From contig CAJXKY010000001.1 of NCBI GenBank assembly GCA_913055675.1, forward strand, positions 11,094-75,093: DNA of 64,000 bases. The letters are read 5' to 3'. The position numbers were made by a program, and so were the translations under genes. Each line of letters starts with the position of its first letter. Within the stretch, counting starts at the first letter, position 1. The DNA comes from an uncultured Halanaerobiales bacterium. GTDB lineage: Bacteria; Bacillota; Halanaerobiia; Halanaerobiales; M55B127. The notes below the pieces were generated by a model. The model saw only the letters and a program-made list of their open reading frames with translations. It was not told the origin of the DNA and made no database searches. Shown piece after piece: positions 49,098 through 64,000 of this stretch.

Positions 49098-49158
49098 AAA
49101 CTCGATTCAAAATAATGAGTTGAAGATAAATGTTTTTAAAAAGTATGGAGTGTTAAAA

Positions 49159-50181: not shown

Positions 50182-50195
50182 AAGGTTGTGTAAAA

Positions 50196-50471
50196 ATGAA
50201 AATTGAAGTTAAGTATTTCAATATTGTTCAGATGAAATTAGATAAAAAGAAGGATGAGATTGATTTAAAACCCGGTAGTGGTATTTATGATTTAATAGAA
50301 AAGTTAGCTGAGATAAATGGTCCAAAATTGAATAATATAATATTGGATAATAACGGGGAGATTAAATCATATATTAAAATATATAGAAACAAAAAATTAT
50401 TATCTGATTATAAAGTTGAACTTTCAGACCGCGATACAGTAAATATATTTATGGCAGTAGCAGGTGGTTAA
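50196..50471 (+). CDS. MoaD/ThiS-family ubiquitin-like small protein (C-terminal GG)
   Basis: 91 aa, beta-grasp-like, ending ...FMAVAGG. Confidence 0.7.
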   Translation: MKIEVKYFNIVQMKLDKKKDEIDLKPGSGIYDLIEKLAEINGPKLNNIILDNNGEIKSYIKIYRNKKLLSDYKVELSDRDTVNIFMAVAGG

Positions 50472-50495
50472 CAAATATAAAATGGGGTGCTAAAT

Positions 50496-51899
50496 ATGAT
50501 TGATAAGTTAATAAAAAATTCTACTTTAATTACAGTTAATAAAAATAGAGAAATATTAAAAAATCATTCAATTGCAGTAAAAGATAAAAAAATTGTAGAT
50601 ATTGCTGAAAATGGTAAACTAGAAAAAAAATATAATGGAAATTATAAAGTGATAAATGGGGAAGGTAAATATGTATTTCCAGGATTGATAAATACTCATA
50701 CACATCTTTTTCAAACTCTTTTAAAAGGAATGGGAGATAATATGTCATTAGAAGATTGGTTTCCTAAAATGACAGCTCCCAGTGCAGTACATTTAAAAAA
50801 AGAAGATATGTATGCTGCCGCTAGATTGGGTATATTAGAAACCATTCAAAGTGGTACTACTACACTTTTAGATTACATGTATGCTCATCCCCAACCTGAA
50901 TTATCTGATCCGGTTATTGAAGCATTTAAGGAATTAAAATTAAGAGGTATTTTTGGTAGAGGAACACATAACACTGGACAGCAATTTGGAAATCCTGAAG
51001 GAATAATTCAGGACATTGATACTATAGAAGATGATGCTAGAAGATTGTTAGATAAGCATCATAATTCAGAAGGGGGAAGAATCAAAGTTTGGTTAGCTCC
51101 AGCAGCAATTTGGACCAATAGTAAAAAATTATTAAAAGTATTATGGGAACTAACACAAGAGTATAATACTGGTTTAACTGCTCATATTTCTGAAACCCCT
51201 TTTGATAGACAAGCTTCACAAGAAATACATGGTAATTCGGACATTAAAGTATTAGAAGAATTGGGTATTGTTGGTCCTGAAGTACTTTTAGTTCATTGTG
51301 TACATTTAACTGATCGAGACAAAAGAATGATCAAACACTATGATATGAAAGTTTCTCATAATCCGGTAAGTAATATGTATTTAGCCTCAGGAGTGGCAGA
51401 TATTCCAGGAATGATTGAAAGAGAAATTCAAGTATCTTTAGCTACTGATGGTCCGGCCAGTAATAATTCTCAAGACATGATAGAAGTACTAAAATCAACT
51501 GCATTATTACATAAAGTAAGTAATATGGATCCTACTATAATTACTGCTGAGAAAGTTTTAGAAATGGCAACTATTGATGGAGCAAAAACTTTAGGTATGG
51601 AAGATGAAATTGGTTCTATTGAGGTAGGTAAAAAAGCTGATTTATTTATTTATAATCCGAAACTTTCTGCAAAATCTATTCCTATGAACCATCCGGTTTC
51701 TACCCTTGTATATTCAGGAAGTGATAGATGTGTAGAAACGGTACTAGTAGATGGAAACATAATATTCGATCAAGGTAAATTAATAACTGGAGATCAGGAA
51801 AAGATTATTAACCAAGGACAAAAAGCCGCAAATGGTTTAGCAAAGAGAGCTGGTTTAGAACATATTAAAAACCGAGAATGGTCTTCGATTGCTTTTTAG
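50496..51899 (+). CDS. amidohydrolase (MtaD/SsnA/guanine-deaminase-like chlorohydrolase family)
   Basis: PGLINTHTHLFQT metal-binding motif, HISE, and VHCVH...SLATDG. Confidence 0.8.
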   Translation: MIDKLIKNSTLITVNKNREILKNHSIAVKDKKIVDIAENGKLEKKYNGNYKVINGEGKYVFPGLINTHTHLFQTLLKGMGDNMSLEDWFPKMTAPSAVHLKKEDMYAAARLGILETIQSGTTTLLDYMYAHPQPELSDPVIEAFKELKLRGIFGRGTHNTGQQFGNPEGIIQDIDTIEDDARRLLDKHHNSEGGRIKVWLAPAAIWTNSKKLLKVLWELTQEYNTGLTAHISETPFDRQASQEIHGNSDIKVLEELGIVGPEVLLVHCVHLTDRDKRMIKHYDMKVSHNPVSNMYLASGVADIPGMIEREIQVSLATDGPASNNSQDMIEVLKSTALLHKVSNMDPTIITAEKVLEMATIDGAKTLGMEDEIGSIEVGKKADLFIYNPKLSAKSIPMNHPVSTLVYSGSDRCVETVLVDGNIIFDQGKLITGDQEKIINQGQKAANGLAKRAGLEHIKNREWSSIAF

Positions 51900-51959
51900 A
51901 AAATATAATTTGATGGGATAATTTCCAAATATCCATTAATTATTTAGGAGGATAAAACG

Positions 51960-52919
51960 ATGAGTGAGAAACTTGATTTGCCAAAAGTAGATTTTGATAT
52001 CGACTCTTTAAAATTAGATGTTTTATTTGAAAATGAGGATTATTTAAAAGAATCAAAAAGGGATTCTTTAGTAAATAATACCCCCAGTAAAATAGATAAA
52101 ATTTATGGAAACTTATTTATGCCGTTATCCAATGGAGATTTTCCTCATGTATATTCAAGTTTTGTTTACTCCCTGGATGGTAAAATAGGTTTTCCAGATT
52201 TACCTGAAGGGCCTTTAGTTTCCAGTAAAAATGAACTTGATCCTGAAGGAGGTAAAGCAGATTTTTGGTTGTTAAATGTACTTCGTACTTATGCTGATAT
52301 AGTTATTAGGGGTGCTAAAACATTAGAAGCAGAAGAGGAAGGTACTGGCCATATTTTTGATGATGATTTAATAGATATAAGAAAAAGCAAACTTAAAAAA
52401 AGAAATGACCACCCAATAAATTTAATTGTTTCTCTAGATGGAACAGATATTCCCTTGAATCATAAAGTGTTCCAAGTACCAGAAATAACAGTATGGATTA
52501 ACACTTCCCCTAATGGTGTTAAATATTTAAAGAAAAACTGGGAAAAAGAATTCACTGTTTTGCATGACTTTGAAAACAAACAATGGAAGCAAAAAATCAA
52601 GAATGCTAAAAAGGGTGATATTTTAGTAATCTGCACTGGTAAAGAAAATAATACAGATGCCATACATTTATTAAAGATTTTAAAAGAAATTGGGATGGAA
52701 CAAATAAGTGTTGAATCTCCATCCTATACATGGCATTTAATGAAAAATAATTTAGTTGATGAGATGTTTATAAATTATTCTAGCTTGTATATAGGAGGAG
52801 AGATGACATTTGGTTTAAATGATCCCTTCACAAGTGAAGACCATCCACATGCAAAAATTGTTAAGTTAGCAATGCATAATTCTGCATTCCTATATACTCG
52901 TCAAAAGATGCTTTATTAA
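51960..52919 (+). CDS. RibD C-terminal domain (dihydrofolate-reductase-like) family protein
   Basis: VYSSFVYSLDGKIGFPD...ADIVIRGAKT...pattern resembles RibD_C pyrimidine reductases. It is separate from the true ribD at 39302. Confidence 0.6.
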   Translation: MSEKLDLPKVDFDIDSLKLDVLFENEDYLKESKRDSLVNNTPSKIDKIYGNLFMPLSNGDFPHVYSSFVYSLDGKIGFPDLPEGPLVSSKNELDPEGGKADFWLLNVLRTYADIVIRGAKTLEAEEEGTGHIFDDDLIDIRKSKLKKRNDHPINLIVSLDGTDIPLNHKVFQVPEITVWINTSPNGVKYLKKNWEKEFTVLHDFENKQWKQKIKNAKKGDILVICTGKENNTDAIHLLKILKEIGMEQISVESPSYTWHLMKNNLVDEMFINYSSLYIGGEMTFGLNDPFTSEDHPHAKIVKLAMHNSAFLYTRQKMLY

Positions 52920-53030: not shown

Positions 53031-53127
53031 TTTAAATACTTTTTTAAATTAAGTAATTAATAGAATATTTATTTACATTCTTGAATATATTTTTTATTTA
53101 AATACTTTTTTAAATTAAGTAATTAAT
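53031..53127. repeat. perfect 31-bp direct repeat, two copies 66 bp apart
   Basis: TTTAAATACTTTTTTAAATTAAGTAATTAAT occurs at 53031-53061 and 53097-53127, immediately upstream of the AOR-2 RBS. Confidence 0.85.
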
Positions 53128-53146: not shown

Positions 53147-55009
53147 ATGGGAAAAGGTTATAATGGCAAGATTCTTAGAGTTAATTTAAATGATCATACT
53201 TGTGAAATAGAAAAAAAAGAAGAAAAATTCTATCGGAAATATCTTGGTGGTCGTAATTTTATTGCTCACTTTCTATTAAAAGAACTTGAACCCGGAATTG
53301 ATCCACTTGGTCCAGAGAATATAATGGTTTTTGCTCCTGGTATTTTGACGGGTTCTCCAATTGGGGGAACAGGTAGAAATAGTGTAGGTGCTAAATCGCC
53401 GTTAACAGGCTATTATGGAGAAGCAGAAGCGGGTGGATATTTTGGTGCTGAGTTAAAAAAAGCAGGTTTTGATGCATTAATAATAGAGGGTAAATCTGAC
53501 ACGCCGGTTTATCTTTGGATTAAAGATGAAGAAGTACATATTAAAGATGCTACTGAACTTCAAGGAAAGAAAATTGCCGAAGTTCAAAAGGATATTGAAA
53601 AAGAGACTGGAGAAAGTGCTGTTCGAACAGCTTTGATTGGTCCTGGCGGAGAAAATGAAGTTAAGTTTGCCAGTATAATGAACGATATTACTCATGCCTA
53701 TGGTAGGACAGGCATGGGAGCAGTTATGGGTTCGAAAAACTTAAAAGGAGTAGCTGTTAAAGCTAACAATAGGCTTGATTTTCATGACAGAGATCAAGTT
53801 TTAGAAATTGCAAAATGGTTAAATGAAAACGTTGATGAATATTGTGGATGGGCAGTAGAAATGGGAACTCCTGGATCTATTATGGATCATAATATGGGGG
53901 ATGGACTTCCAACAAGAAATTTCAATGAAGCCAGTTTTGAAAATGCCCAAGATATTTCTGGTGAGGAAATGCATTCTACTATATTAGTTGGGAGAGATAC
54001 TTGTTATGCCTGTCCAGTTAGATGCAAACAGGTGGTAGAGGTAGAAGAACCATATAATGTAGATAGAGTATATGGAGGGCCTGAATATGAAACTCTTACA
54101 TCTTTTGGTTCTATGTGTGGGGTTTCAGATTTAAAAGCTGTTGCTAAGGCTAATGAGATTTGTAATGCTTATACATTAGATACTATATCGACAGGTGGAG
54201 CAATTGCTTTTGCAATGGAATGTTTTGAGAAAGGAATTATTGATAAAAAAGCGACCAATGGTATGGAATTAGTTTTTGGTAATGGGGAAGCCATGGTTAA
54301 GTTAACAAAACAAATAGCTAACCGCGAAGGTCTCGGAGATATTTTAGCAGATGGAATTAGGCAAGCGGCTAAAACGTTTGGTAATGGGGCAGAAAAATTA
54401 GCGGTAGAAGTAAAGGGGCAGTCAGTTCCTTATCATGAGCCCAGAACAAAGAAAGGTACAGCTTTAGGTTATGCACTTTCTCCAACTGGTGCTGATCATG
54501 TTCATAATATATTAGATGACTTTTATGTGCCTGGTAGTTTTGCTATTGATGAAATCAAGGCTCTTGGCATTTCTGAAGGTTTACCAATGGAACAATTAGA
54601 TTACCAGAAAGTAAGAATGTATGCTTATCGAGTAATGTGGACAAGTTTATTAAACTCATTAGTTATGTGTTTATTTATGCCTTTCACATACGAACAACAG
54701 GTAGAAATGGTTAATGCTGTTACAGGTTGGAATACCACCACATTTGATTTAGCTAAAATTGGAGAAAGAAGCATCAACTTAACTAGAGTATTTAATTTAC
54801 GTGAAGGACTAACAGCTAAAGAAGATACACTCCCTGATAAAATGTTTGAAGTGGGCATTTTTGATGATGATAGAAAAGTAGATAGGAAAAAATTTAAAGA
54901 AGCTGTGCAAACATATTATAAAATGATGGGATGGACCAGAAAAGAAGGTAAACCGGAAAAAGAAAAATTAATGGAACTTGATATTGAATGGGCGAATGAG
55001 TATATTTAA
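53147..55009 (+). CDS. aldehyde:ferredoxin oxidoreductase family protein (tungstopterin type), paralog 2
   Basis: 620 aa. ILRVNLND..YLGGRNF, TCYACPVRC, GGPEYETL, DTISTGG and the C-terminal AOR domains. Confidence 0.9.
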   Translation: MGKGYNGKILRVNLNDHTCEIEKKEEKFYRKYLGGRNFIAHFLLKELEPGIDPLGPENIMVFAPGILTGSPIGGTGRNSVGAKSPLTGYYGEAEAGGYFGAELKKAGFDALIIEGKSDTPVYLWIKDEEVHIKDATELQGKKIAEVQKDIEKETGESAVRTALIGPGGENEVKFASIMNDITHAYGRTGMGAVMGSKNLKGVAVKANNRLDFHDRDQVLEIAKWLNENVDEYCGWAVEMGTPGSIMDHNMGDGLPTRNFNEASFENAQDISGEEMHSTILVGRDTCYACPVRCKQVVEVEEPYNVDRVYGGPEYETLTSFGSMCGVSDLKAVAKANEICNAYTLDTISTGGAIAFAMECFEKGIIDKKATNGMELVFGNGEAMVKLTKQIANREGLGDILADGIRQAAKTFGNGAEKLAVEVKGQSVPYHEPRTKKGTALGYALSPTGADHVHNILDDFYVPGSFAIDEIKALGISEGLPMEQLDYQKVRMYAYRVMWTSLLNSLVMCLFMPFTYEQQVEMVNAVTGWNTTTFDLAKIGERSINLTRVFNLREGLTAKEDTLPDKMFEVGIFDDDRKVDRKKFKEAVQTYYKMMGWTRKEGKPEKEKLMELDIEWANEYI

Positions 55010-55038
55010 ACTTATAATAATGTAAGGAGTGTTAAATA

Positions 55039-57336
55039 TTGAATGCAAAACTGGAGAAAAACTCAGGGTACATATCATATAATATAGACGGAATGAAGAT
55101 CAAATTTCATAAAGATCCTTTCGCCGTAGAAATTACTAAAGATCAAACTTCTATTACTGGGAATTATAAAATGGAGGGGCAAGGATTTTATTTTAATCAT
55201 AAAAATGTAGAAAAGAGAGAATTTTTAAATATAATTGAAGGGTATGATTTTAATAATGGAAATTTAACTATAAAACTTTTAAGTAATAAAAATACAAAAG
55301 TCAGACTAAATGTGACAAAAAAATTAGATTATGTAGTTAATTTTACTTTTGAAAATATTTCGGATAAAAATGAGATTTCCAGTTTTGCTGCTGAGTGGCA
55401 AATAAATGAAGGAGATCATTTCTATGGGTTTGGAGAAAGATTTGGATCTATTGATAAAAAAGGAGAAAAAGTAGATTTATGGGTTGAAAATGGTTCATAT
55501 CCAGGCTCGACTTATAAGCCTATTCCCTTCTTTATGAGTCCCCGTGGGTATGGAATGATGATAGATACTGACCATCGTTGTATCTGTAAGATGGGTGAGA
55601 TAGACAATTCAAATAAATATTCCATAATCAACATGGATTCTCAGTTAGAAATAAACTTCATATATGGACCTGAAATGAAAGATATACTCGATAGATATCT
55701 AAAAATAGTTGGGAAACCCAGTTCTCCACAAAAGTATTTTTTTGGTCCCTGGAAATCCAGAGATTGGAAGGTTGAAAATCAAGAAAGTGTTTATGAAGAT
55801 CTCAATACACAACGAGAACTTAATATCTCAGGAACAATAAAATTAATAGATGCAGGTTGGGAAACCGAGTACCATACTTTTAAGTTTGATGAGAACAAAT
55901 ATCCTAATTACAAAAAAATGATTAATGATGCAAGCAAAAAAGGTTATAAAATTGTACTTTGGATTTCTCCCTGGCTAATGTCAGGAACTGAAGCTTATAA
56001 AAATGCTAAAGAAAAAGGCTACTTCATTAAAAAAGAGGATGGAAGTGTATATGTCAATAAACTAGGTAATTCACCAACCCTGCGTGGCTCAGTACTTGAT
56101 TTTACAAAGCCGAAAGTAGTTAAGTGGTGGCAGGATAATTTAAGAGAAGTAATGGAGCTTGGAATTGTAGGATTTAAAACTGATTTTGGTGAACAGGTGC
56201 CAGTTGATTCAGTATTTGACAATGGAAAAACAGGAGCAGAAATGCATAACATATTTCCTGAATTGTATAACCGATTAACTTGGGAAGTTGTTAAAGAAAA
56301 AGATGGTATACTTTTTGCTCGCTCTGCTTGGCATGGATCTCAAAAATATCCTGGTATTTGGGCTGGTGATCAGGCGCCAGGCTTTGCTCCATGGAGTGGT
56401 TTACCTAGTGTTATAAGTGCTGGACTTTCTGCTGGAATGTCTGGTTTCCCCTATTGGGCTAGCGATATAGGAGGTTACTTTGGAAAACCTTCTAAAGAAG
56501 TATTTATTAGGTGGGCTCAATTCGGTGCTTTCTCCCCAATAATGCAAATACATGGAAAAGGAGAACATGATCCCTGGAATTTTGATAGTGAAACCTTAAT
56601 TATCTATAAAAATTATGCTCAACTTCATATGAGATTATTATCTTATATTTATAAATATTCTAAAAGAGCAGCTCAAACAGGTGAACCAATAATGAAAGCT
56701 TTACCTTTTGCCTACCAAGATGATGAGAGAGTTCATAAACTTGAATGTGCACAATATGAATACTTATTTGGAGAAGAAATTTTAGTGGCTCCAATTTATT
56801 ATGGTGGAAATTTCAAAAGAATATATCTTCCAAAAGGAAAATGGATAGATTGGTGGACCGGCAATGAGTATGATGGTAACCAAGAAATCGAATATATTGC
56901 TAGTTTAAAAAGAATACCTTTATTTATTAAAAAAGGATCAATTATTCCACTCCTACCTGCTGGTATAGATACAATATTACCTGTAGAGAGTAAAAAAATA
57001 AAAAATGAAGAGGATAAGCTAATATATGAAATATATCCTTCTGAAGAAGCAACTTTTTCTCGGGATGATGGCTGTAAAATAAAGGTTAAGAAAATTAAAA
57101 ATCAAATTGAAATTAAAATTGAGAATTCTAGTCTAAAAGAAATGGAGTTGAATATTATTGATGCCTTAGATAAAGAAATAAAGAGTTTTTCAGGGTGTAA
57201 TATAATAGATACTGGTAAGGCATCCCCGGTTCTCTCCGAGGTTGATCCGGATAAAGTGCTACATGAAGGTTTTAAAATAGTAATTGCGCCTCAAAAAGAG
57301 GATATAAAAATAAAATTGGAAAGCGAGGAGAAATAA
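55039..57336 (+). CDS. glycoside hydrolase family 31 (alpha-glucosidase/xylosidase-like)
   Basis: VLWISPW, GFKTDFGE (nucleophile region), IWAGDQ, GFPYWASDIGGY. Confidence 0.85.
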   Translation: MNAKLEKNSGYISYNIDGMKIKFHKDPFAVEITKDQTSITGNYKMEGQGFYFNHKNVEKREFLNIIEGYDFNNGNLTIKLLSNKNTKVRLNVTKKLDYVVNFTFENISDKNEISSFAAEWQINEGDHFYGFGERFGSIDKKGEKVDLWVENGSYPGSTYKPIPFFMSPRGYGMMIDTDHRCICKMGEIDNSNKYSIINMDSQLEINFIYGPEMKDILDRYLKIVGKPSSPQKYFFGPWKSRDWKVENQESVYEDLNTQRELNISGTIKLIDAGWETEYHTFKFDENKYPNYKKMINDASKKGYKIVLWISPWLMSGTEAYKNAKEKGYFIKKEDGSVYVNKLGNSPTLRGSVLDFTKPKVVKWWQDNLREVMELGIVGFKTDFGEQVPVDSVFDNGKTGAEMHNIFPELYNRLTWEVVKEKDGILFARSAWHGSQKYPGIWAGDQAPGFAPWSGLPSVISAGLSAGMSGFPYWASDIGGYFGKPSKEVFIRWAQFGAFSPIMQIHGKGEHDPWNFDSETLIIYKNYAQLHMRLLSYIYKYSKRAAQTGEPIMKALPFAYQDDERVHKLECAQYEYLFGEEILVAPIYYGGNFKRIYLPKGKWIDWWTGNEYDGNQEIEYIASLKRIPLFIKKGSIIPLLPAGIDTILPVESKKIKNEEDKLIYEIYPSEEATFSRDDGCKIKVKKIKNQIEIKIENSSLKEMELNIIDALDKEIKSFSGCNIIDTGKASPVLSEVDPDKVLHEGFKIVIAPQKEDIKIKLESEEK

Positions 57337-58175
57337 TGCCATTAGTAGATACTAAAAATATTTTAAATAAAGCTAAAAATAGTAATTATGGTATAGGTTC
57401 TTTTAATATATATAATTTAGAAACGACACAAGCTGTAATGGATGCAGCGGAGGAAAATAAATCTCCTGTTATGATTCAAGCTTGGTCTGGAATTTTTGAG
57501 ATGGGTTTAGTAGAAATGGAAACACTTGTTTCCCTTGTTAAAACTAGAATTGGACTTTCGAAAGTTCCTGCCTCCTTACATTTAGATCATGGAGAAAAAT
57601 ATGAAACCATTTGTAAAGCTATTCGAGCAGGCTTCACTTCTGTTATGATTGATGCTTCTACTAAATCTCTAGAGGCAAATATTGCATTAACTAAAAAAGT
57701 TGTAGAAACTGCTCATGCTTCAGGAGTATCAGTTGAGGCGGAATTAGGCCATGTAGGTGAAGAAAAAGGAGATAGTGTTTTTACTGATCCTGATGAAGCT
57801 AAATACTTTGTTAAAGAAACTGATGTTGATTATTTAGCAATATCTATAGGAAGTATCCATGGATACAATGAAGACGATGTTAAATTAAATATAGAACTAC
57901 TAAGAAAAATCAAAGAAAAAATTGATATACCATTGGTTTTACATGGTTCTTCTTACTTATCAGGTGAAGAGTTAGGAAAAGCAGTTAAAAATGGAATTGA
58001 TAAAGTTAATATTAATACAGAAGTTAGTGTAGCAATGATAGAAGGATTTAAACAGGCATTGGCAGATAATCCAAACACCATATATAACAATATTTTTACC
58101 GATCAAGCAAAATATGAAATGGTAAAGGTAATAAAAGAAAAAATGAATATGTTAAATTCAAGTAATCAACTTTAG
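57336..58175 (+). CDS. class II (metal-dependent) ketose-bisphosphate aldolase family protein
   Basis: SLHLDHG, SVMIDAS, EAELGHVG, SIGSIHG, LVLHGSS. Confidence 0.85.
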   Translation: MPLVDTKNILNKAKNSNYGIGSFNIYNLETTQAVMDAAEENKSPVMIQAWSGIFEMGLVEMETLVSLVKTRIGLSKVPASLHLDHGEKYETICKAIRAGFTSVMIDASTKSLEANIALTKKVVETAHASGVSVEAELGHVGEEKGDSVFTDPDEAKYFVKETDVDYLAISIGSIHGYNEDDVKLNIELLRKIKEKIDIPLVLHGSSYLSGEELGKAVKNGIDKVNINTEVSVAMIEGFKQALADNPNTIYNNIFTDQAKYEMVKVIKEKMNMLNSSNQL

Positions 58176-58223
58176 TTGATATGGATTTGTTGTATGAATT
58201 AAAAATTTAAAGGGGTGTGGGTA

Positions 58224-59210
58224 ATGGATTTGGATGTTGTTGGAATTGGGGTACCTTGTGTAGACCTATTATTTAATATCGATCATTTACCGGATAAAGA
58301 TGAATCATTACCTATTCAGGAATATTCCTATCAAGGAGGTGGTAAGGTAGCTACTGCTCTTGTGACACTAGCTCGTTTGGGAGAACAAACAGGTTTTATA
58401 GGTAAGGTTGGTAATGATAAATTCGGGAAATTTGTTACAAAAGATTTTAAGGAACATGGGGTAGATACTATCCACTTAAAGTATGAGAAAGCGGGAAAGA
58501 CACCTTTTTCAGTAGTGTTAAGTGATCAAAAAACTAGTGGCAGAAATATTTTATATAATAAAGGTGAGCTAGAAACTTTAAATTATTCCGAAATAGATCT
58601 TGATTACATAAAACAGGCAGATTTTTTACATATGGCTTACCCTAGGAAATTAGAATATGAAATATTAAAAGAAATTGAAAATGAAGATATTACAACTATA
58701 TTTGATGCTGATTTTTTTGAAACTGCAATAATTGATCTTCTACCTTTTATCAATGTACTCATTACTTCGCAAGAGTTTGCAGAAGGGTATGGAGAAAGTT
58801 TAGACAACGAATTAGATAAATTTGAGGATATATTATTAAAATTGTCTCAGGAAGGACCGGAAATAGTTGTTATAACAATGGGTAAAGAAGGTTCATTAAT
58901 ATACTATGAGAATGAGGTTTTTCACCAGGAAGTTTTTTCAGTAGAAACCAAGGATACAACTGGAGCTGGTGATGTTTATCATGGAGCATTTATATATGGA
59001 TTATTAAATAACAAAAGTATAAAAGAGACTGCTAAGATTGCATCAGCAGTATCGGCAATCAAAACCACAGTAATTGGAGGACGAGCTGGAATTCCAACAG
59101 CTGGTGATTTAAATTATTTTTTAAAGAATAATGCAGTTAGAATAACCGACAAAAAACAGAGGATAAAAAATTATAGAAATAATTTTCATATTGGGAGTGA
59201 GTTAAAGTGA
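58224..59210 (+). CDS. PfkB/ribokinase-family sugar kinase
   Basis: GGKVATA and DTTGAGDVYHGAF motifs. Confidence 0.85.
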   Translation: MDLDVVGIGVPCVDLLFNIDHLPDKDESLPIQEYSYQGGGKVATALVTLARLGEQTGFIGKVGNDKFGKFVTKDFKEHGVDTIHLKYEKAGKTPFSVVLSDQKTSGRNILYNKGELETLNYSEIDLDYIKQADFLHMAYPRKLEYEILKEIENEDITTIFDADFFETAIIDLLPFINVLITSQEFAEGYGESLDNELDKFEDILLKLSQEGPEIVVITMGKEGSLIYYENEVFHQEVFSVETKDTTGAGDVYHGAFIYGLLNNKSIKETAKIASAVSAIKTTVIGGRAGIPTAGDLNYFLKNNAVRITDKKQRIKNYRNNFHIGSELK

Positions 59211-60382
59211 GATTAGGGTTTAATGATATGAGCAGATATAATAGAATAACTGTTTTAAATTTAATAAGACGCAATGTAAGTATCTCTAGATCAGAGTTAG
59301 CAGAAAAAACAGGACTAACTCCTCCTAGTATATCTAGAATTACTAAGGAATTAATGGAACGAGATTTAATAATAGAATCTGGTGTAGGAGAATCTAATGT
59401 AGGCCGGAAACCAATTATGATGGAATTTAATGAAAGTAGCAGGTCAATTATTGGGTTGGATTTAAGGCCTGATCACATAAATGGAGTTATTACAAATTTG
59501 AGCCCTCAAATTTTAAAAAAATATGAAAATGATTTTGATATTAATTTACCCCCAAAGAAAATTTTAAATATCTGTAGAAATTTTTTAAATAATATATTAG
59601 AGGATGTAAAAGAAATAGCGCCATTACTTGGAGTTGGGATAGTTTTGCCAGGTGTAGTTGATATAGACAAAGGGGAATTAACTTATTCCGCCCCAATGGG
59701 ATGGAGTAAAGTTGATATTAAATCTAGTTTTAAAGAAATTCTCCCAGATATACCATTTAGAATAGATAATTTAGCACATGCAGTTGCTTTAGGAGAAAAA
59801 TGGTTAAAGCATGACAAAGAAAGAGATGATTTTGTATATGTTTATGTAGGCAAAGGTATAGGAGCAGGTATTATTGCAAATGGACAAATCTATCATGGTT
59901 CTGAATATAATGCTGCTGAAATTGGCCATTCCACTATAAATTTTAATGGACCGCTTTGCAGTTGTGGAAATAGAGGATGTTTAGAAACTTATTGTTCTAC
60001 AAAAGTATTACAAAGTAATATTGAAAATAAATTAGATATTACAATTAAAAGAGAAGAAGAGTTATGGGAAATATTAAATTCAAATGAAAAAAAAGTGAAT
60101 GAAGTAATAGAGGAAGCATTAGATTATTTAGGGATAGGGATAGCTAACTTAATAAATACCTTAAATCCTGAAAAGATTATAATTGGAGGTTGGCCTCAAA
60201 AAGTAGGATATAATCAAGTACTACATTATTTGTGGAAAGTTGTACAAAAACATTCTATGGAGGGTTTAAGCGATAATATAGAAGTAGAGTTTTCATATAA
60301 AGATGAAGATGTAGGACCTTTATTAGGCGCTTCAACTTTAGTATTAGAAGACTTTTTAACAGAAACAGCAGTGAAAAATTAG
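59207..60382 (+). CDS. ROK family transcriptional regulator (wHTH + ROK sugar-binding domain)
   Basis: N-terminal ISRSELAEKTGLTPPSISRITKEL. ROK Zn motif GHSTINFNGPLCSCGNRGCLE. Confidence 0.85.
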   Translation: MRLGFNDMSRYNRITVLNLIRRNVSISRSELAEKTGLTPPSISRITKELMERDLIIESGVGESNVGRKPIMMEFNESSRSIIGLDLRPDHINGVITNLSPQILKKYENDFDINLPPKKILNICRNFLNNILEDVKEIAPLLGVGIVLPGVVDIDKGELTYSAPMGWSKVDIKSSFKEILPDIPFRIDNLAHAVALGEKWLKHDKERDDFVYVYVGKGIGAGIIANGQIYHGSEYNAAEIGHSTINFNGPLCSCGNRGCLETYCSTKVLQSNIENKLDITIKREEELWEILNSNEKKVNEVIEEALDYLGIGIANLINTLNPEKIIIGGWPQKVGYNQVLHYLWKVVQKHSMEGLSDNIEVEFSYKDEDVGPLLGASTLVLEDFLTETAVKN

Positions 60383-60451
60383 AACTATTAAATTATATGA
60401 TGAGAAATTATAATGATTTGATATAACATAAATTAAAGGAAGGTGAAAAAT

Positions 60452-61795
60452 ATGAATAAGTTTAAAATTGGTTTTGTATCTTTAGGAAAGCAATATGGAT
60501 TTAATCTTGATTTAGCCGGTGAAACTCGAAAGAAATCTATAGATTTACTTGAGAGTATTGATGACTTATCAGTAGTTACAGCTGGAGATTTAGTTATTAC
60601 AGAAAACGATGCCCAAAATGCTATAGAAAAGTTTAAAAATAATAATGTTGATCAGGTAATAATTCAAAGTGGAACATTTTCTTCAGGAGAAGTTTTTATG
60701 AAATTCGCAAAATCTTTTGATGGTCCTTTTCTACTTTGGGGAATTCCTGAACCTAAGATAGAAGAGAATATTAAACTAAACTCATTGTGTGGAGTAAATT
60801 TAAATTCCAGTCTTCTTTCAAATCTTGATAAGGAATATAAATATATATATGGTAATCCTACTGAAGAGAAAATTAATAATGAATTAGTTAGTTGGTTCAA
60901 AGTGAATTCATTAAAAGAAGATTTAAAAGATTTAAATGTAGGTTTGTTTGGTTCACACACACCAGGGTTTTATACTTTTGGCATTAATGAATTGAAATTA
61001 CGTAAAAATGTTGGTCCCCGTATAACTCATGTAGATTTAAGTAAATTATATCAAAAAGCAGAATCACATAAAGGGGAAGATACTTCTGATTTTGATAGCG
61101 AACTTAGTGAATTATCAGATAACTACGATGAACTACCTAAAAATAAACAGAGTCAGTATTCAAGGACATATAAAAGTTTTAAAGATATAATAGATGAGTT
61201 TTCTTTAGATGCAGTAGCAGTAAAATGCTGGCCAGAATTTATAGAAGATTATGGACAAGCCGCTTGTGCCACTCTTTCGAAGTTAACTAATGATGATATA
61301 GTTACAGGTTGTGAAGGAGATGTATTAGGTACTGTTACTTCCTATATATTAAGTGAACTTGGAGATAGTGCGCCCTTTATAGCTGATTTAGTTCAAATAG
61401 AAAAAGACAAAAACACAGGAGTAATGTGGCATTGTGGAGTAGCACCATTTTGCCATGCACATTCAGAAAGTCCTGTTAAAATAGGTGAAGAATTTGGTAT
61501 AGGAGGAATCAATGTAGAATTTGCTATGCAACCTGGAGAAGTTACTATTGCGAGACTTAGTATGAATAAAGGAGATTATCGACTATTAATTACAAGTGGA
61601 GAAGCAGTTGATACTACTGAAACACCTGACGGTACAGCGGCTGTTGTTAAATTTGATTCAGATATTAATGAAGTATTAGACACAATAATTTATGGTGGAT
61701 ATGAACATCATTTAAGTTTGGTATATGCAGATGTTAAAAAGGAATTAATAGAATTAGGTAAGTTATTAGATATAGAGACAGTGGTATTAGAATAA
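60452..61795 (+). CDS. L-fucose/L-arabinose isomerase-family sugar isomerase
   Basis: ATG lies 7 nt after AAAGGAAGG. About 447 aa with VTGCEGDVLGT and WHCGVAP segments as in FucI/AraA-like proteins. Confidence 0.65.
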   Translation: MNKFKIGFVSLGKQYGFNLDLAGETRKKSIDLLESIDDLSVVTAGDLVITENDAQNAIEKFKNNNVDQVIIQSGTFSSGEVFMKFAKSFDGPFLLWGIPEPKIEENIKLNSLCGVNLNSSLLSNLDKEYKYIYGNPTEEKINNELVSWFKVNSLKEDLKDLNVGLFGSHTPGFYTFGINELKLRKNVGPRITHVDLSKLYQKAESHKGEDTSDFDSELSELSDNYDELPKNKQSQYSRTYKSFKDIIDEFSLDAVAVKCWPEFIEDYGQAACATLSKLTNDDIVTGCEGDVLGTVTSYILSELGDSAPFIADLVQIEKDKNTGVMWHCGVAPFCHAHSESPVKIGEEFGIGGINVEFAMQPGEVTIARLSMNKGDYRLLITSGEAVDTTETPDGTAAVVKFDSDINEVLDTIIYGGYEHHLSLVYADVKKELIELGKLLDIETVVLE

Positions 61796-61880
61796 AATTA
61801 ACTGATGCAAATAACACTGTTCCATAAGTTACTATAATAAAAATATTTAGAATATTGTAACAGGACAAGAGGTGAATTTA

Positions 61881-63008
61881 ATGATAATTGAAAATCTTAA
61901 AGCGAACTTGGTGGTTCATCCTCTTCCAGGCGAGTTTCATCCAGCCTGGGGACCTGGGCTTACTATGAGGGAATTACCCTTGACTTTAATTGAAATAACT
62001 ACTGATACTGGAATAAAAGGTTATGGGGCCTTGCCTGCTTCTGGCAAAGAAGGGGTAGTAGGTGTCAATACATTTATTAAAGATAATTTGATTGGTTTAG
62101 ATGTATTTAATATAGAAGAGATAGAAAAAGTTTTGAGAAATGCTAGTCTAAGAACGATATGGCCTTGGGGAGTTGAAATGGCAATTTGGGATATAATTGG
62201 CAAAGATGCAAATAGACCAGTATATAAATTGATGGGGGGATTTCAAGATGAAATAAAAGTATATGCTAGTTTAGGGGAAGTTAGATCAGCTGAAGATAGA
62301 GTTAAAGAAGCAATACAAATAAAAGAAGCTGGTTTTTCTGGCATTAAATTACGGTTTCATGACAATGATCCTTCAAATGATATTAAAATAGCTCGTGATG
62401 TTGTGGAAGCTGTAGGAGAATCAATGGAAATTATGGTAGATGCTAACCAGGCAGATGCTCTTCCTGGTTCTAAAAGTGTTAATCAATGGGATTATTATAC
62501 TGCACTAGAGGTTGGTAAAGAATTAGAAAAAATGGGAATAGCCTGGCTAGAAGAACCATTACCTCGTTTTGATATAGAGGGATTAAAAAAATTATCTAAT
62601 AAACTTAGTATTCCCATAGCTGGTGGAGAAAAAAATCAAATGATTGCGGAATTCAAACAATTAATTGAAAATGATTGTTATGATATTTTACAGGGGGATG
62701 CTAGTTTTTCTGGAGGATTATTTGAATTGAGAAAAATTGCAGGTATTGCTGAAGCATATCATAAAAAATTTATTCCTCATACTTGGAGTAATGGTATTGG
62801 ATTATATGCTAATTTACAGCTAGCAGCATCATTACCAAATTGTCCATGGTTTGAATATCCCTATGAAAAACCAGGTTGGGACCATGCGGCAAATAATATC
62901 TTATTTAAAGAAGGTTTAGAGATTAAAAATGGGTATATTAATGTGCCCCAAAAACCCGGCTTAGGTTTTGAAATAGAACCAACTCAATTAGAGAAGTATA
63001 AAGTTTAG
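61881..63008 (+). CDS. enolase-superfamily enzyme (mandelate racemase/muconate-lactonizing family; probable sugar-acid dehydratase)
   Basis: KLRF, MVDANQA, WLEEP, AGGE, DILQGD, PHTW metal/acid-base ligand pattern. Confidence 0.8.
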   Translation: MIIENLKANLVVHPLPGEFHPAWGPGLTMRELPLTLIEITTDTGIKGYGALPASGKEGVVGVNTFIKDNLIGLDVFNIEEIEKVLRNASLRTIWPWGVEMAIWDIIGKDANRPVYKLMGGFQDEIKVYASLGEVRSAEDRVKEAIQIKEAGFSGIKLRFHDNDPSNDIKIARDVVEAVGESMEIMVDANQADALPGSKSVNQWDYYTALEVGKELEKMGIAWLEEPLPRFDIEGLKKLSNKLSIPIAGGEKNQMIAEFKQLIENDCYDILQGDASFSGGLFELRKIAGIAEAYHKKFIPHTWSNGIGLYANLQLAASLPNCPWFEYPYEKPGWDHAANNILFKEGLEIKNGYINVPQKPGLGFEIEPTQLEKYKV

Positions 63009-63199
63009 TAAATTCTTAAAATAATCAACAAGTTTGAAAGTTTAAATTAATTAAGTATAAATTATGGGGATAAGGTGAAAATAGGATTTTTTCATTAAAT
63101 ACAAACTTTATAACGGGGGGTGAGAAATTTCAAATAATAACAATTTGGTAGAATTAGGTTTGGAAATTAGATAAAAAATTATTTAAAGGAGGGTTTATT

Positions 63200-64000
63200 T
63201 TGTTGAAAAGAATAATTGCTTTAACAGGTTTATTAGTATTATTAGCAGGTTTATTTTTAGCTAACGGAGTCCAGGCACAGGGTGAGACAGAAATTGATGT
63301 GTGGATCTATCAGTCATTTTATGAAAATGAAGAAGATTCTGCAATAGTAAAAGCAACAGAGAAATTCATGGAAGAAAACCCAAACATAAAAGTAAATTTA
63401 ATTCCTACTGTCTATGGTTCAGGTTCTTATAGAGATAAATTCATTAGAGTTTCCAGAGGTGGCGGTGGTCCAGATGTTATAATGAACGATATTATCTGGG
63501 TACCACAAATGGCAGCGATGGAAATAATCCAGCCCGTTGGAGATATGATGGGAGATAAGAAAAATGAATTTTTCGAAACTCCTCTTAAAGCTGCAACTCA
63601 TGAAGATAAAATATATGGTGTGCCTTACCATACAAATGCTTTAGGATATTTTTATAATAAAGATCTTTTCAGAAAAGCTGGTTTAGATCCTGAAGATCCA
63701 CCAGATACCTGGAGTGAATTCAGAGCAGCAGCTAATCTAATAACAAAAGAAACAGATTCCCACGGATTTGGCTATATGGGCCATTGGGGAGGTTCGTTTG
63801 AATGGTTTTCCCCTTTCTGGGCATTTGGTGCTAATGTCTTAGAAGATAATATGAAAGAAGCAGCTTTGAATAGTCCACAGGGTAAAATGGCAACTGAATT
63901 TTGGATTAATATGGTAACCCAAGATGGTGTTGTGCCTAAAGCTTCTTCAACTTGGAAAAGCTGGGAAGAAATAGCTTCTGGTTTTGCTACGGAAACTGTA
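63200..64000 (+). CDS. ABC sugar transporter substrate-binding protein, family 1 (3' end outside window)
   Basis: Not in the ORF track because it is open-ended. TTG(TTG) start follows AAAGGAGGG. Signal peptide KRIIALTGLLVLLAGLFLANGVQA, then EIDVWIYQSF...PDVIMNDIIWV. Confidence 0.8.
   Translation, partial: MLKRIIALTGLLVLLAGLFLANGVQAQGETEIDVWIYQSFYENEEDSAIVKATEKFMEENPNIKVNLIPTVYGSGSYRDKFIRVSRGGGGPDVIMNDIIWVPQMAAMEIIQPVGDMMGDKKNEFFETPLKAATHEDKIYGVPYHTNALGYFYNKDLFRKAGLDPEDPPDTWSEFRAAANLITKETDSHGFGYMGHWGGSFEWFSPFWAFGANVLEDNMKEAALNSPQGKMATEFWINMVTQDGVVPKASSTWKSWEEIASGFATETV

What the first reader, a model, noticed from the sequence alone, without database searches (positions are those of the whole stretch)
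53147..64000. Tungsten-type aldehyde:ferredoxin oxidoreductase as first gene of a carbohydrate utilisation operon
**Operon structure.** AOR paralog 2 is followed after only 29 nt, with no terminator, by a GH31 glycosidase. The chain then continues with tight or overlapping junctions (TAATG at 57334-38, GTGA at 59207-10). The downstream genes are a class II ketose-bisphosphate aldolase, a PfkB kinase, a ROK regulator, a FucI/AraA-like isomerase, an enolase-superfamily (sugar-acid dehydratase-like) enzyme and an ABC sugar-binding protein.

**Why it stands out.** AORs are not usual members of bacterial sugar operons. Two readings fit the gene set:
- Isomerase, kinase and aldolase produce a C2/C3 aldehyde (glyceraldehyde, lactaldehyde or glycolaldehyde) that AOR oxidises with ferredoxin as acceptor.
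- An Entner-Doudoroff-like branch runs through an aldonate dehydratase, a KDG-kinase-like PfkB and an aldolase. Here AOR would play the role it has in archaeal non-phosphorylative ED pathways.

Either reading would be an uncommon ferredoxin-coupled glycoside catabolic route in a bacterium.
Basis: inference. Interest (0 to 1): 0.6.

Follow-up and report, generated by a model that had tools for sequence, protein, structure and literature searches.

The report
Tungsten aldehyde oxidoreductase heading a sugar operon
A salt-loving anaerobe (Halanaerobiales) has a ferredoxin-linked, tungsten-type aldehyde oxidoreductase as the regulated first gene of a conserved operon for an unidentified alpha-linked sugar, where it most likely oxidises the small aldehyde left after the sugar is split, which would give this poorly understood enzyme family a concrete metabolic job.

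Summary
On the + strand lie AOR, GH31, class II aldolase, PfkB kinase, ROK regulator, SftI-like isomerase, enolase-superfamily enzyme and an ABC importer. Gaps are short or overlapping and no terminator follows the AOR.

The linkage is conserved. Eight diverged genomes (isomerase 44-89% identical, 32-51% GC) have the AOR first. Their AORs form one clade (100/100). A palindrome, TTACTTA-N3-TAAGTAA, lies 32-41 nt before the first gene in seven loci.

Three aerobe-type versions lack the AOR and carry an NAD(P) aldehyde dehydrogenase instead, once translationally coupled to glycerate kinase.

The core resembles sulfoglycolysis (sulfo-EMP2), but the published sulfonate motifs of the glycosidase and kinase are absent, and the aldolase has lost its 6-phosphate site.

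Best reading: glycoside, then ketose-1-phosphate, then DHAP plus glyceraldehyde or lactaldehyde, which the AOR oxidises. The Entner-Doudoroff reading is not.

The sugar and the enolase-family enzyme's step remain unknown.

The scan has noted AORs in other sugar operons on other DNA, but no look-alike of this cluster. I found no paper describing it.

The parts
53031..53127 (+). Promoter/operator region. It holds two perfect 31-nt direct repeats (53031-53061 and 53097-53127). Each contains an operator-like site TTTTTTAAATTAAGTAA (53040-53056 and 53106-53122). The proximal site lies 41 nt before the AOR start codon.
   Evidence: The repeat was found. The proximal copy is fully conserved in G002 and the distal copy partly. 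Matches to TTACTTA-N3-TAAGTAA lie 32-41 nt upstream of the first gene in 7 loci, against 0.88 hits in shuffled loci. That the ROK protein binds here is inferred.
53147..55009 (+). Class I tungsten-type aldehyde:ferredoxin oxidoreductase (WorL only), first gene of the operon. Proposed oxidase of the aldolase-derived C3 aldehyde.
   Evidence: AFOR_N + AFOR_C. Scores 430 bits to P. furiosus AOR 1aor. CxxCxxxC plus the distal Cys, and the equivalents of Thr243, Glu313 and His448, are conserved. Orthologs are 52-65% identical in the other clusters, against 30-38% for paralogs in the same genome. The cluster AORs are monophyletic at 100/100.
55039..57336 (+). Cytoplasmic GH31 alpha-glycosidase of a distinct YicI-related subfamily (motif KLIDAxWE).
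   Evidence: Pfam GH31 domains. YicI 316 bits, YihQ 198 bits. Nucleophile D382 and acid/base D444 are present. The YihQ R301/W304 loop and Q288 are absent. YicI C307/F308/W380 are replaced by A/G/G. No signal peptide.
57336..58175 (+). Class II (metal-dependent, DHAP-type) ketose-1-phosphate aldolase that lacks a 6-phosphate site.
   Evidence: PF01116, 299 bits. The 'DPR' arginine and the 6-phosphate Ser found in the genome's own FBA and in E. coli GatY are replaced by aromatic-x-Asn and an invariant Trp in all cluster aldolases.
58215..59210 (+). PfkB-family sugar kinase, proposed ketose 1-kinase.
   Evidence: PF00294. The best solved relative is sulfofructose kinase YihV (7ag6, 104 bits). 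The catalytic GAGD motif is kept, but the YihV K27/N109/R138 sulfonate triad is absent.
59207..60382 (+). ROK-family transcriptional regulator with an N-terminal winged helix. Proposed repressor acting at the operator upstream of the AOR.
   Evidence: ROK + HTH_24/MarR domains. NagC/Mlc-like. Present in every cluster variant. Binding to the operator is inferred.
60443..61795 (+). Aldose-ketose isomerase of the FucI/AraA-like family, a sister subfamily of the sulfoquinovose isomerase SqvD/SftI.
   Evidence: Fucose_iso_C. Scores 351 bits against NCBIfam SftI, whose cutoff is 700, and all cluster orthologs score 260-350 bits. Homologs at or below 36% identity lie in unrelated contexts.
61872..63008 (+). 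Enolase-superfamily (mandelate racemase subgroup) dehydratase-like enzyme. A distinct subfamily whose step in the pathway is unknown.
   Evidence: MR_MLE_N/C. The best relatives are galactonate, talarate and arabinonate dehydratases, all far below cutoff. The metal ligands and His-Asp dyad are kept, KxK is KxR, and an 11-12 aa insertion follows DANQ; both features are conserved in all orthologs. It is the most conserved protein of the cluster at 51-68% identity.
63200..64000 (+). CUT1-type ABC transporter binding protein with a signal peptide. The gene continues to window-equivalent 64465 and is followed by two permease genes ending at 66292.
   Evidence: SBP_bac_1. The best solved relative is 5ci5 at 132 bits, while the sulfoquinovosyl-glycerol binder SmoF scores only 57 bits. 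Downstream genes were read from the genome.

Best explanation
This is a ROK-regulated operon for an imported alpha-glycoside whose sugar cannot enter glycolysis by ordinary 6-phosphorylation.

Proposed route:
1. The ABC system imports the glycoside.
2. The cytoplasmic GH31 releases the sugar.
3. The SftI-like isomerase converts the aldose to a ketose.
4. The PfkB kinase phosphorylates C1.
5. The class II aldolase, which has lost its 6-phosphate site, cleaves the ketose-1-phosphate into DHAP and a short, uncharged 2-hydroxy-aldehyde (glyceraldehyde or lactaldehyde).
6. The AOR, the first gene behind the cluster's own operator, oxidises that aldehyde to the acid and passes the electrons to ferredoxin, and from there probably to hydrogenase.
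7. Glycerate, if that is the product, enters lower glycolysis through glycerate kinase.

Oxygen-tolerant relatives use an NAD(P) aldehyde dehydrogenase for step 6.

What is shown: the gene content, order and conservation, the operator, the single recruitment of the AOR, the AOR/ALDH alternation, and the loss of the phosphate and sulfonate motifs.

What is inferred: every substrate, ferredoxin as acceptor, tungsten as the metal, ROK as the operator-binding protein, and co-transcription.
For: - **Operon structure.** Gaps are tight or overlapping, a ribosome-binding site precedes GH31, and there is no terminator.
- **Conserved order.** The AOR (with or without a GG-ending WorX ORF) is first, 13-37 nt before GH31, in G002, L029, L030, L032 and L033, and 91 nt before it in L043. 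G123 has the same order.
- **Single recruitment.** The eight AORs form one clade at 100/100, with none of 30 sampled homologs inside. Two near relatives at 55-56% identity are stand-alone genes in non-sugar contexts.
- **Shared operator.** TTACTTA-N3-TAAGTAA lies 32-41 nt before the first gene in seven loci, including the ALDH-type L034. Shuffled loci give 0.88 hits.
- **AOR/ALDH alternation.** The three ALDH-type clusters (L034, L035, L036) have the same gene set without an AOR. They carry a PF00171 dehydrogenase closest to lactaldehyde DH, GAPN and sulfo/phosphonoacetaldehyde DH.
- **Glycerate kinase.** In L034 the dehydrogenase stop overlaps a glycerate kinase start. L033 has a glycerate kinase after the permeases. 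The window's genome has one on contig C49.
- **Aldolase.** The 6-phosphate Arg and Ser are replaced by aromatic residues.
- **AOR integrity.** The cofactor and catalytic residues are intact, and the genome has two MoeA genes.
Against:
- The sugar is unknown.
- The enolase-superfamily enzyme is universally conserved but has no place in the core scheme.
- Glycerate kinase is inside only 2 of 11 clusters.
- Lactate, the product if the aldehyde is lactaldehyde, would leave both glycerate kinase and a dehydratase unexplained.
- The second pterin-binding motif of the AOR reads NSLVMC instead of DxxGLC.
- The oxygen relations of several hosts are unknown, because they are metagenome contigs.
Confidence: 0.58

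Rival explanations
1. Sulfosugar variant. The cluster is a divergent sulfoglycolysis (sulfo-EMP-type) operon. The GH31 would be a third, non-canonical kind of sulfoquinovosidase, the aldolase would release sulfolactaldehyde, and the AOR would oxidise it to sulfolactate. The enolase-family enzyme might then eliminate sulfite to give pyruvate.
For: - The isomerase's only NCBIfam relative is the sulfoquinovose isomerase SftI.
- The kinase's best solved relative is sulfofructose kinase.
- The family combination PF02952 + PF00294 + PF01116 matches published hybrid sulfo-EMP1/2 clusters (PMC10665668).
- SqiA binds sulfonate through backbone amides, so losing the Arg is compatible with sulfonate.
- AmSqgH shows that a GH31_3-like enzyme without the RWY motif can be a sulfoquinovosidase (PMC12780224).
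- A canonical sulfoquinovose cluster exists in the same order, in G028.
- AOR-type clusters have no sulfonate exporter, which would fit complete breakdown of the C3 sulfonate.
Against: - The YihQ Q/E-RWY residues are absent from all cluster GH31s.
- The position beside C6 is a small neutral residue, while about a third of the wider subfamily has Arg or Lys there.
- The YihV K-R-N triad is absent and Asn109 is replaced by a hydrophobic residue (PMC8006165).
- The isomerase scores only half the SftI cutoff.
- The substituting dehydrogenase is not GabD/SlaB-like.
- The binding protein is not SmoF-like.
- Glycerate kinase coupling is unexplained.
- No sulfite-handling genes lie in the clusters.
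Confidence: 0.12
2. Sugar-level oxidation. The AOR (or the dehydrogenase in aerobes) oxidises the released sugar itself, or an open-chain or anhydro sugar aldehyde, to a sugar acid. The enolase-family enzyme then dehydrates or cyclo-isomerises that acid, as in 3,6-anhydrogalactose catabolism or the top of non-phosphorylative Entner-Doudoroff/Weimberg routes. Isomerase, kinase and aldolase would serve a second moiety.
For: - The enolase-family enzyme co-occurs with AOR or ALDH in every cluster and is the most conserved member.
- In ALDH-type clusters it lies next to EamA and ALDH with overlapping genes.
- Its nearest relatives are C5/C6 acid-sugar dehydratases.
- An ALDH followed by an enolase-superfamily cycloisomerase and a PfkB kinase is the known logic of anhydrogalactose pathways (my own knowledge, not checked here).
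Against: - The aldolase is DHAP-type, not the pyruvate-type needed after a 2-keto-3-deoxy acid.
- The PfkB is not KdgK-like.
- AOR and ALDH enzymes act poorly on cyclised hexoses (background knowledge).
- This reading needs two substrates or an unusual sugar for which there is no other hint.
Confidence: 0.14
3. General detoxification, or coincidental linkage. The AOR is a broad-specificity aldehyde scavenger, for example for methylglyoxal or other reactive by-products, or it runs in reverse as a carboxylate reductase. It would sit at this promoter without a defined step in the pathway.
For: - The enzyme belongs to the broad-specificity P. furiosus AOR clade.
- Its closest non-cluster relatives are stand-alone genes.
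- Characterised Class I WORs of this clade are described as detoxifying enzymes (PMC13328260).
- The genome has at least five other AOR paralogs.
Against: - The position behind the cluster's operator is fixed in eight genomes.
- The AORs are monophyletic and co-inherited with the cluster.
- An ALDH takes the AOR's place in every cluster that lacks it, and no cluster has both or neither.
Confidence: 0.08

Closest known systems
Sulfo-EMP2 and hybrid sulfo-EMP1/2 sulfoglycolysis (SqvD/SftI isomerase, YihV or SqiK kinase, SqiA class II aldolase, YihQ GH31, then SlaB dehydrogenase or YihU reductase)
   Same: - The same protein families in the same roles: GH31 glycosidase, PF02952 isomerase, PF00294 kinase and PF01116 aldolase lacking the 6-phosphate Arg, followed by disposal of a C3 aldehyde.
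- A ROK regulator also occurs in the canonical cluster of G028.
   Different: - The sulfonate-recognition residues of YihQ and YihV are absent.
- The isomerase scores half the SftI cutoff.
- There is no SLA reductase, GabD-type dehydrogenase or sulfonate exporter.
- An AOR and an enolase-superfamily enzyme are added.
Phosphorylative L-fucose / L-rhamnose pathways (isomerase, 1-kinase, aldolase, then lactaldehyde dehydrogenase AldA/RhaW or reductase FucO)
   Same: The reaction logic is the same: aldose to ketose to ketose-1-phosphate to DHAP plus a C3 2-hydroxy-aldehyde, which is then oxidised. The substituting ALDH is closest to a lactaldehyde dehydrogenase model.
   Different: - The kinase (PfkB, not FGGY) and the aldolase (PF01116, not PF00596) belong to different families.
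- A GH31 alpha-glycosidase suggests a D-gluco/xylo-type sugar rather than L-fucose or L-rhamnose.
- The oxidant is ferredoxin-linked.
Non-phosphorylative branch of the archaeal Entner-Doudoroff pathway (glyceraldehyde to glycerate by an aldehyde oxidoreductase or dehydrogenase, then glycerate kinase)
   Same: Non-phosphorylated glyceraldehyde is oxidised to glycerate by a pterin or ferredoxin-type oxidoreductase. Glycerate kinase follows, and it is present in L033, L034 and the window's genome.
   Different: Here the aldehyde would come from a DHAP-type class II aldolase acting on a ketose-1-phosphate, not from a KD(P)G pyruvate aldolase, and the host is a bacterium. The archaeal AOR role is from my own knowledge; PMC2063504 only cites the original papers.
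Class I tungsten oxidoreductases (WorL with or without WorX) of the P. furiosus AOR clade (PfAOR 1aor; CsWOR87)
   Same: - A single large subunit with no adjacent polyferredoxin or flavoprotein gene.
- Conserved [4Fe-4S] and catalytic residues.
- A ThiS-like, GG-ending WorX gene next to the AOR in five relatives (PMC13328260).
   Different: - Characterised members are described as broad detoxifying enzymes, whereas this lineage is fixed in a catabolic operon.
- In the window, WorX is not adjacent; a ThiS-like gene lies 2.7 kb upstream at 50196-50471.
PfkB kinase plus PF01116 aldolase pairs acting on non-bisphosphate ketoses (E. coli YdjH/YdjI; IolC/IolJ of inositol catabolism)
   Same: The same two families are paired to phosphorylate and cleave a ketose that carries something other than phosphate at its far end. 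YdjI likewise lacks the DPR arginine.
   Different: Those substrates end in a carboxylate, whereas the cluster aldolase pocket is aromatic and uncharged. Sequence similarity is no higher than to FBP aldolases (162 bits against 197 bits).
GH31 subfamily 3: alpha-xylosidase YicI and the sulfoquinovosidase AmSqgH
   Same: YicI is the closest solved relative (316 bits). The catalytic Asp pair and the KTDFGE motif are shared.
   Different: - The xylose-restricting residues Cys307, Phe308 and Trp380 are replaced by small residues, so a C6 group should fit.
- I could not obtain the AmSqgH sequence, so a direct comparison was not possible.

Membership tests
Sulfoglycolysis (sulfo-EMP / sulfo-EMP2) gene cluster | GH31 sulfoquinovosidase with the Q/E-R-W-Y sulfonate pocket (YihQ Q288, R301, W304, Y508) | tested here: not met
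   The R301/W304 loop and Q288 are missing from the window GH31 and from all six orthologs compared; only the Tyr is present. The motif definition comes from PMC8006165 and PMC12780224. AmSqgH shows that this feature is not obligatory for activity.
Sulfoglycolysis (sulfo-EMP / sulfo-EMP2) gene cluster | Sulfoquinovose isomerase SqvD/SftI (NCBIfam NF048012 equivalog, cutoff 700 bits) | tested here: not met
   The window protein scores 351 bits and the cluster orthologs 280-301 bits. They are a sister subfamily, not the equivalog.
Sulfoglycolysis (sulfo-EMP / sulfo-EMP2) gene cluster | Sulfofructose kinase with the K27-N109-R138 sulfonate triad | tested here: not met
   The positions read Ser, Leu/Ile/Phe and an alignment gap in all cluster kinases, while the catalytic Asp is conserved.
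Sulfoglycolysis (sulfo-EMP / sulfo-EMP2) gene cluster | Class II sulfofructose-1-phosphate aldolase: a PF01116 enzyme lacking the inter-subunit 6-phosphate Arg, with sulfonate held by backbone amides | tested here: inconclusive
   The 6-phosphate Arg and Ser are absent, as in SqiA, but an invariant Trp and a 2-residue insertion sit in the loop that binds sulfonate in SqiA. Sequence alone cannot decide.
Sulfoglycolysis (sulfo-EMP / sulfo-EMP2) gene cluster | Sulfolactaldehyde reductase (YihU) or GabD/SlaB-type dehydrogenase, plus a sulfonate exporter | tested here: not met
   None is present in the window or in the AOR-type loci. The ALDH of the aerobic variants scores higher against lactaldehyde DH (463 bits) than against SSADH/GabD models (338-359 bits).
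Class I tungsten-containing oxidoreductase (AOR clade) | AFOR_N and AFOR_C domains, with [4Fe-4S] Cys ligands and catalytic Thr243/Glu313/His448 (PfAOR numbering) | tested here: met
   Both domains are found at E = 1e-76 and 1e-123. All listed residues align with 1aor.
Class I tungsten-containing oxidoreductase (AOR clade) | No WorS polyferredoxin, flavoprotein or membrane subunit genes adjacent; an optional ThiS-like WorX | tested here: met
   The neighbours are a RibD_C gene upstream and GH31 downstream. WorX-like GG-ending ORFs follow the AOR in L029, L030, L032 and G123.
Class I tungsten-containing oxidoreductase (AOR clade) | Tungsten (not molybdenum) in the pterin cofactor, and ferredoxin as the electron acceptor | not testable with these tools
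   There is only indirect support: two MoeA copies in the genome and membership of the PfAOR clade.
   The aldolase is PF01116, a DHAP-dependent class II enzyme. The PfkB scores 25 bits against KdgK (cutoff 400) and 96 bits against archaeal KDG/KDGal kinase (cutoff 400).
GH31_3 alpha-xylosidase (YicI) | Cys307-Phe308 and Trp380, which close the pocket around C5 and exclude a C6 group | tested here: not met
   These are replaced by Ala-Gly (Ala plus A/S/C in orthologs) and by Gly/Ser. The score against the alpha-xylosidase equivalog is 415 bits, with a cutoff of 606.
Class II fructose/tagatose-1,6-bisphosphate aldolase | 6-phosphate binding by the 'DPR' arginine and a loop Ser/Thr | tested here: not met
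   Both are present in the genome's housekeeping FBA (contig C14) and in E. coli GatY, and absent from all seven cluster aldolases. All FBA and tagatose-bisphosphate aldolase equivalog scores fall below cutoff.

The most novel reading that the evidence does not exclude
The cluster encodes an undescribed, ferredoxin-coupled pathway for a C6-modified alpha-D-glucoside such as a quinovoside or sulfoquinovoside. It would be built from new specificity subfamilies of GH31, SqvD-like isomerase, PfkB kinase and class II aldolase. The tungsten AOR would be the committed C3-aldehyde oxidase. The enolase-superfamily enzyme would be a new C3-acid beta-eliminase (glycerate dehydratase or sulfolactate sulfo-lyase) that turns the AOR product directly into pyruvate, so anaerobes could use the whole sugar without excreting a C3 product.
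Probability: 0.12. Interest if true: 0.85.

Novelty: new variant of a known kind. Interest (0 to 1): 0.62.

Why it matters
According to the 2026 classification (PMC13328260), only five of 92 tungsten-oxidoreductase clades contain an enzyme with a defined physiological role. That paper does not mention sugar or carbohydrate gene contexts at all.

This cluster offers a well-delimited, testable case of a bacterial Class I AOR with a fixed catabolic step. An NAD(P) dehydrogenase in aerobic relatives serves as a natural control. A conserved operator and regulator give a handle for finding the inducer.

The cluster also defines an orphan pathway that is a sister to sulfoglycolysis. Its sugar is unidentified, and it contains a new enolase-superfamily subfamily.

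If confirmed, the pathway would show how fermenters send aldehyde electrons to ferredoxin and hydrogen rather than NADH during glycoside breakdown.

Tried and rejected
**Readings tested and rejected or weakened**
- Canonical sulfoquinovose operon: rejected at residue level for the GH31 and the kinase, and by model score for the isomerase. It is kept only as a minority rival.
- Alpha-xylosidase reading of the GH31: rejected because the xylose-restricting residues are replaced.
- FBP or tagatose-bisphosphate aldolase: rejected because the 6-phosphate site is lost and a separate housekeeping FBA exists.
- Entner-Doudoroff-like reading: rejected because the aldolase class is wrong and the kinase is not KdgK-like.
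- Enolase-family enzyme as a racemase: unlikely, because KxK is KxR and only the His-Asp base remains.
- The 14-nt palindrome ATTAAGTAATTAAT as a wider regulon motif in the window: no enrichment, with 8 hits against 8.8 expected.

**Searches that gave little or nothing**
- The binding protein as an SQGro binder: SmoF scores only 57 bits, which is uninformative.
- The search for related loci with the isomerase found only the near-identical G002 contig.
- The AmSqgH sequence could not be obtained because no supplements are held, so no direct comparison was made.
- Full-text searches for AOR with sulfoquinovose and AOR with GH31 returned no papers.

Full report
**1. Observation**

Pfam and NCBIfam confirm each family:

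| Gene | Coordinates | Family |
|---|---|---|
| AOR | 53147-55009 | AFOR_N + AFOR_C |
| GH31 | 55039-57336 | GH31, TTG start |
| Aldolase | 57336-58175 | PF01116, class II |
| Kinase | 58215-59210 | PfkB |
| Regulator | 59207-60382 | ROK with winged helix |
| Isomerase | 60443-61795 | FucI/AraA-like |
| Enolase-superfamily protein | 61872-63008 | MR_MLE_N/C |
| ABC binding protein | from 63200 | SBP_bac_1 |

- The AOR-GH31 gap is 29 nt, with AAGGAG 9 nt before the TTG.
- TAATG and GTGA are true overlaps.
- No terminator-like hairpin falls in any intergenic gap.
- Reading on in the genome (window = G000:C1:11094-75093), the binding-protein gene ends at window-equivalent 64465. Two permease genes follow, ending at 66292, after which the theme changes.
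- The closest relative is a Halanaerobiales MAG, so the host is a halophilic fermenting anaerobe.

**2. Conservation of the AOR linkage**

Within the genus the cluster is sporadic. Only 2 of 13 genomes (G000 and G002) have a close isomerase ortholog. In a phylum sample, 3 of 401 genomes have one.

Wherever the cluster occurs in anaerobe-type genomes, the AOR comes first. The order is:

AOR – (GG-ending ThiS-like ORF, the 'WorX' of PMC13328260) – GH31 – aldolase – PfkB – ROK – (M24/creatinase-like) – isomerase – enolase-family – (MalK) – binding protein – two permeases

It is seen in:
- G002;
- L029, L030, L032 (Moorellaceae bacterium AZ2) and L033 (complete Clostridia genome CP069393.1);
- G123;
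- L043, as far as that contig reaches.

These loci range from 32 to 51% GC. Their proteins are only 33-68% identical to the window's, and the ranking of identity is the same for every gene. The gap before GH31 is 13-37 nt in all the complete loci.

**3. One AOR lineage**

The AOR has thousands of homologs at 52-56% identity. Two that I examined are stand-alone genes in non-sugar contexts.

In a maximum-likelihood tree, the eight cluster-linked AORs form a single clade at 100/100. None of 30 sampled database homologs falls inside it, and the genome's own paralogs lie far outside. So the AOR was recruited once from a generic clade and has since been inherited with the cluster.

**4. Shared operator**

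The 227-nt region upstream of the AOR holds two perfect 31-nt repeats. The proximal copy is fully conserved in G002.

Comparing the diverged loci revealed an inverted repeat, TTACTTA-N3-TAAGTAA. It is perfect in L029 and L032. With two mismatches or fewer, it lies 32-41 nt before the start codon of the first gene in:
- the window, G002, L029, L030, L032 and L033;
- the ALDH-type L034, where the first gene is the aldolase.

Shuffled loci give 0.88 hits across six loci. The AOR therefore sits directly behind the cluster's own control element. That the ROK protein binds it is my inference.

**5. Non-orthologous displacement**

Three loci carry the same genes in another order and have no AOR: Paenibacillus nasutitermitis (L034) and two metagenome contigs (L035, L036), at 51-60% GC. 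They encode a PF00171 aldehyde dehydrogenase beside an EamA-type transporter.

No cluster has both oxidases, and none has neither. The split is 8 AOR-type to 3 ALDH-type.

- The dehydrogenase is closest to lactaldehyde dehydrogenase (463 bits, below cutoff). Next come phosphono- and sulfoacetaldehyde dehydrogenases and GAPN, all of which act on C2-C3 aldehydes.
- In L034 its stop codon overlaps the start of a glycerate kinase gene.
- L033 has a glycerate kinase after the permeases.
- The window's genome has an intact glycerate kinase on contig C49.

**6. What the enzymes say about the substrate**

The catabolic core resembles sulfoglycolysis at family level:
- The isomerase's only NCBIfam relative is the sulfoquinovose isomerase SftI.
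- The kinase's best solved relative is sulfofructose kinase.
- PF02952 + PF00294 + PF01116 is a published hybrid sulfo-EMP combination (PMC10665668).
- A canonical sulfoquinovose cluster, with a YihQ-model GH31 scoring 953 bits, exists in the same order in G028.

The residue-level tests fail, however:
- **GH31.** It lacks YihQ's R301/W304 loop and Q288.
- **Kinase.** It lacks the K27-N109-R138 triad.
- **Isomerases.** They score about half the SftI cutoff.
- **Binding protein.** It is not SmoF-like.

Other residue-level results:
- **GH31 is not xylosidase-like either.** YicI's Cys307, Phe308 and Trp380 are replaced by small residues, so a C6 group should fit.
- **C6 pocket is neutral.** In the wider 'KLIDAxWE' subfamily, about a third of members have Arg or Lys at x, the residue next to C6. 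All cluster enzymes have G, A, S or C.
- **Aldolase has no 6-phosphate site.** It has lost the 'DPR' arginine and the 6-phosphate Ser that the genome's own FBA and E. coli GatY retain. Aromatic-x-Asn and an invariant Trp take their place.

Together these results point to a ketose-1-phosphate with an uncharged tail. The aldehyde released would then be glyceraldehyde or lactaldehyde.

AmSqgH shows that sulfonate motifs can be reinvented within GH31 (PMC12780224), so a sulfosugar is disfavoured but not excluded.

**7. The unexplained member**

The enolase-superfamily protein is the most conserved protein of the cluster. It keeps the three metal ligands and the His-Asp dyad, has KxR in place of KxK, and carries a subfamily-specific 11-12-residue insertion.

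It therefore looks like a one-base dehydratase or beta-eliminase acting on a 2-hydroxy-acid. Three roles are possible:
- It acts on the acid made by the AOR. Glycerate would give pyruvate, and sulfolactate would give pyruvate plus sulfite.
- It acts on an acidic aglycone.
- It acts on a sugar acid made by the AOR or ALDH from the sugar itself.

I could not decide between these.

The M24/creatinase-like gene found in most relatives is absent from the window, from G002 and from the rest of this genome.

**8. Mechanism and comparison**

The best-supported scheme is:
1. ABC import of the glycoside.
2. Hydrolysis by the GH31.
3. Aldose-ketose isomerisation.
4. 1-phosphorylation.
5. Class II aldol cleavage to DHAP plus a C3 aldehyde.
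6. Oxidation of the aldehyde by the AOR, with ferredoxin as acceptor.
7. Entry of glycerate through glycerate kinase.

The scheme compares with known systems as follows:
- It works like the fucose, rhamnose and sulfo-EMP pathways.
- Its last steps work like the archaeal non-phosphorylative Entner-Doudoroff branch.
- It is not a member of any of these, because it fails their defining sequence features (see the membership table).

The AOR itself does meet the sequence criteria of a Class I WOR.

**9. Novelty and limits**

I found no paper linking an AOR to GH31 or to sulfoquinovose. The WOR classification paper never mentions sugar contexts.

Earlier notes of this scan report AORs in other sugar operons on other DNA: rhamnose/fucose clusters, a canonical sulfoquinovose operon and orphan islands. 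They contain no look-alike of this cluster. I did not check those notes.

Everything here is comparative. No enzyme activity has been measured. The metal, the electron acceptor and the sugar are all inferred.

Noticed in passing
window 47211-49097: The ORF lister calls AOR 'paralog 1' only from 47781, so only the AFOR_C domains appear. G002 encodes a full-length ortholog (tblastn match L024:3055-4908, 93% identical over the shared part). A decayed IS110 transposase fragment lies upstream at 46054-46587.
   Followed up: partly
window 49120-52919: Between the two AORs lie genes for a LacI regulator, a 91-aa ThiS/MoaD-like protein ending in GG (50196-50471), an amidohydrolase and a RibD_C protein. 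All are syntenic in G002. The ThiS-like gene may serve as the WorX for both AORs, because the window lacks the WorX ORF that follows the AOR in other clusters.
   Followed up: partly
L026 (G028:C1:3803000-3822999): A genome of the same order carries a canonical sulfoglycolysis cluster: a YihQ-model GH31 (953 bits, cutoff 553), an SftI-like isomerase, a class II aldolase lacking DPR, a sulfolactaldehyde/tartronate-semialdehyde-reductase-like gene, a sodium:solute symporter and a ROK regulator. It has no AOR.
   Followed up: partly
L029:11353-11369: A second operator-like site (ATACTTAATTTATGTAA) lies 32 nt before the enolase-family gene of L029. It suggests an internal regulated promoter for the enolase/ABC half in that genome. 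No equivalent was found in the window at two mismatches or fewer.
   Followed up: no
L001, between 1560 and 1629 (window-equivalent 64466-64535): A GC-rich stem-loop (GGGGCTAT-TGTAAG-ATAGCCCC, then TATATTT) lies between the binding-protein gene and the first permease gene. It looks like an attenuating terminator of the kind that raises binding-protein expression over the permeases.
   Followed up: no
L001:4690-7191 and L043:7115-9744: A purple-acid-phosphatase-like metallophosphoesterase and a 5'-nucleotidase C-domain gene lie just downstream of the cluster in the window's genome, and just upstream of the AOR in L043. This is either a conserved neighbourhood or a rearrangement around the cluster.
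   Followed up: no
G000 contigs C8, C7, C38, C44 and C13: The 2.4-Mb, 79%-complete genome encodes at least six AOR-family genes (two in this window, four elsewhere at 30-38% identity) and a second GH31 at 34% identity. Two MoeA genes lie side by side on C6.
   Followed up: no
proteins P0211-P0330 (GH31 homologs): The GH31 'KLIDAxWE' subfamily has thousands of members in Chloroflexota, Deinococcota and Bacillota, far more than the isomerase-defined cluster. About a third have Arg or Lys at the residue beside C6 ('DARW'), which would suit an anionic C6 group. Their gene contexts were not examined.
   Followed up: no
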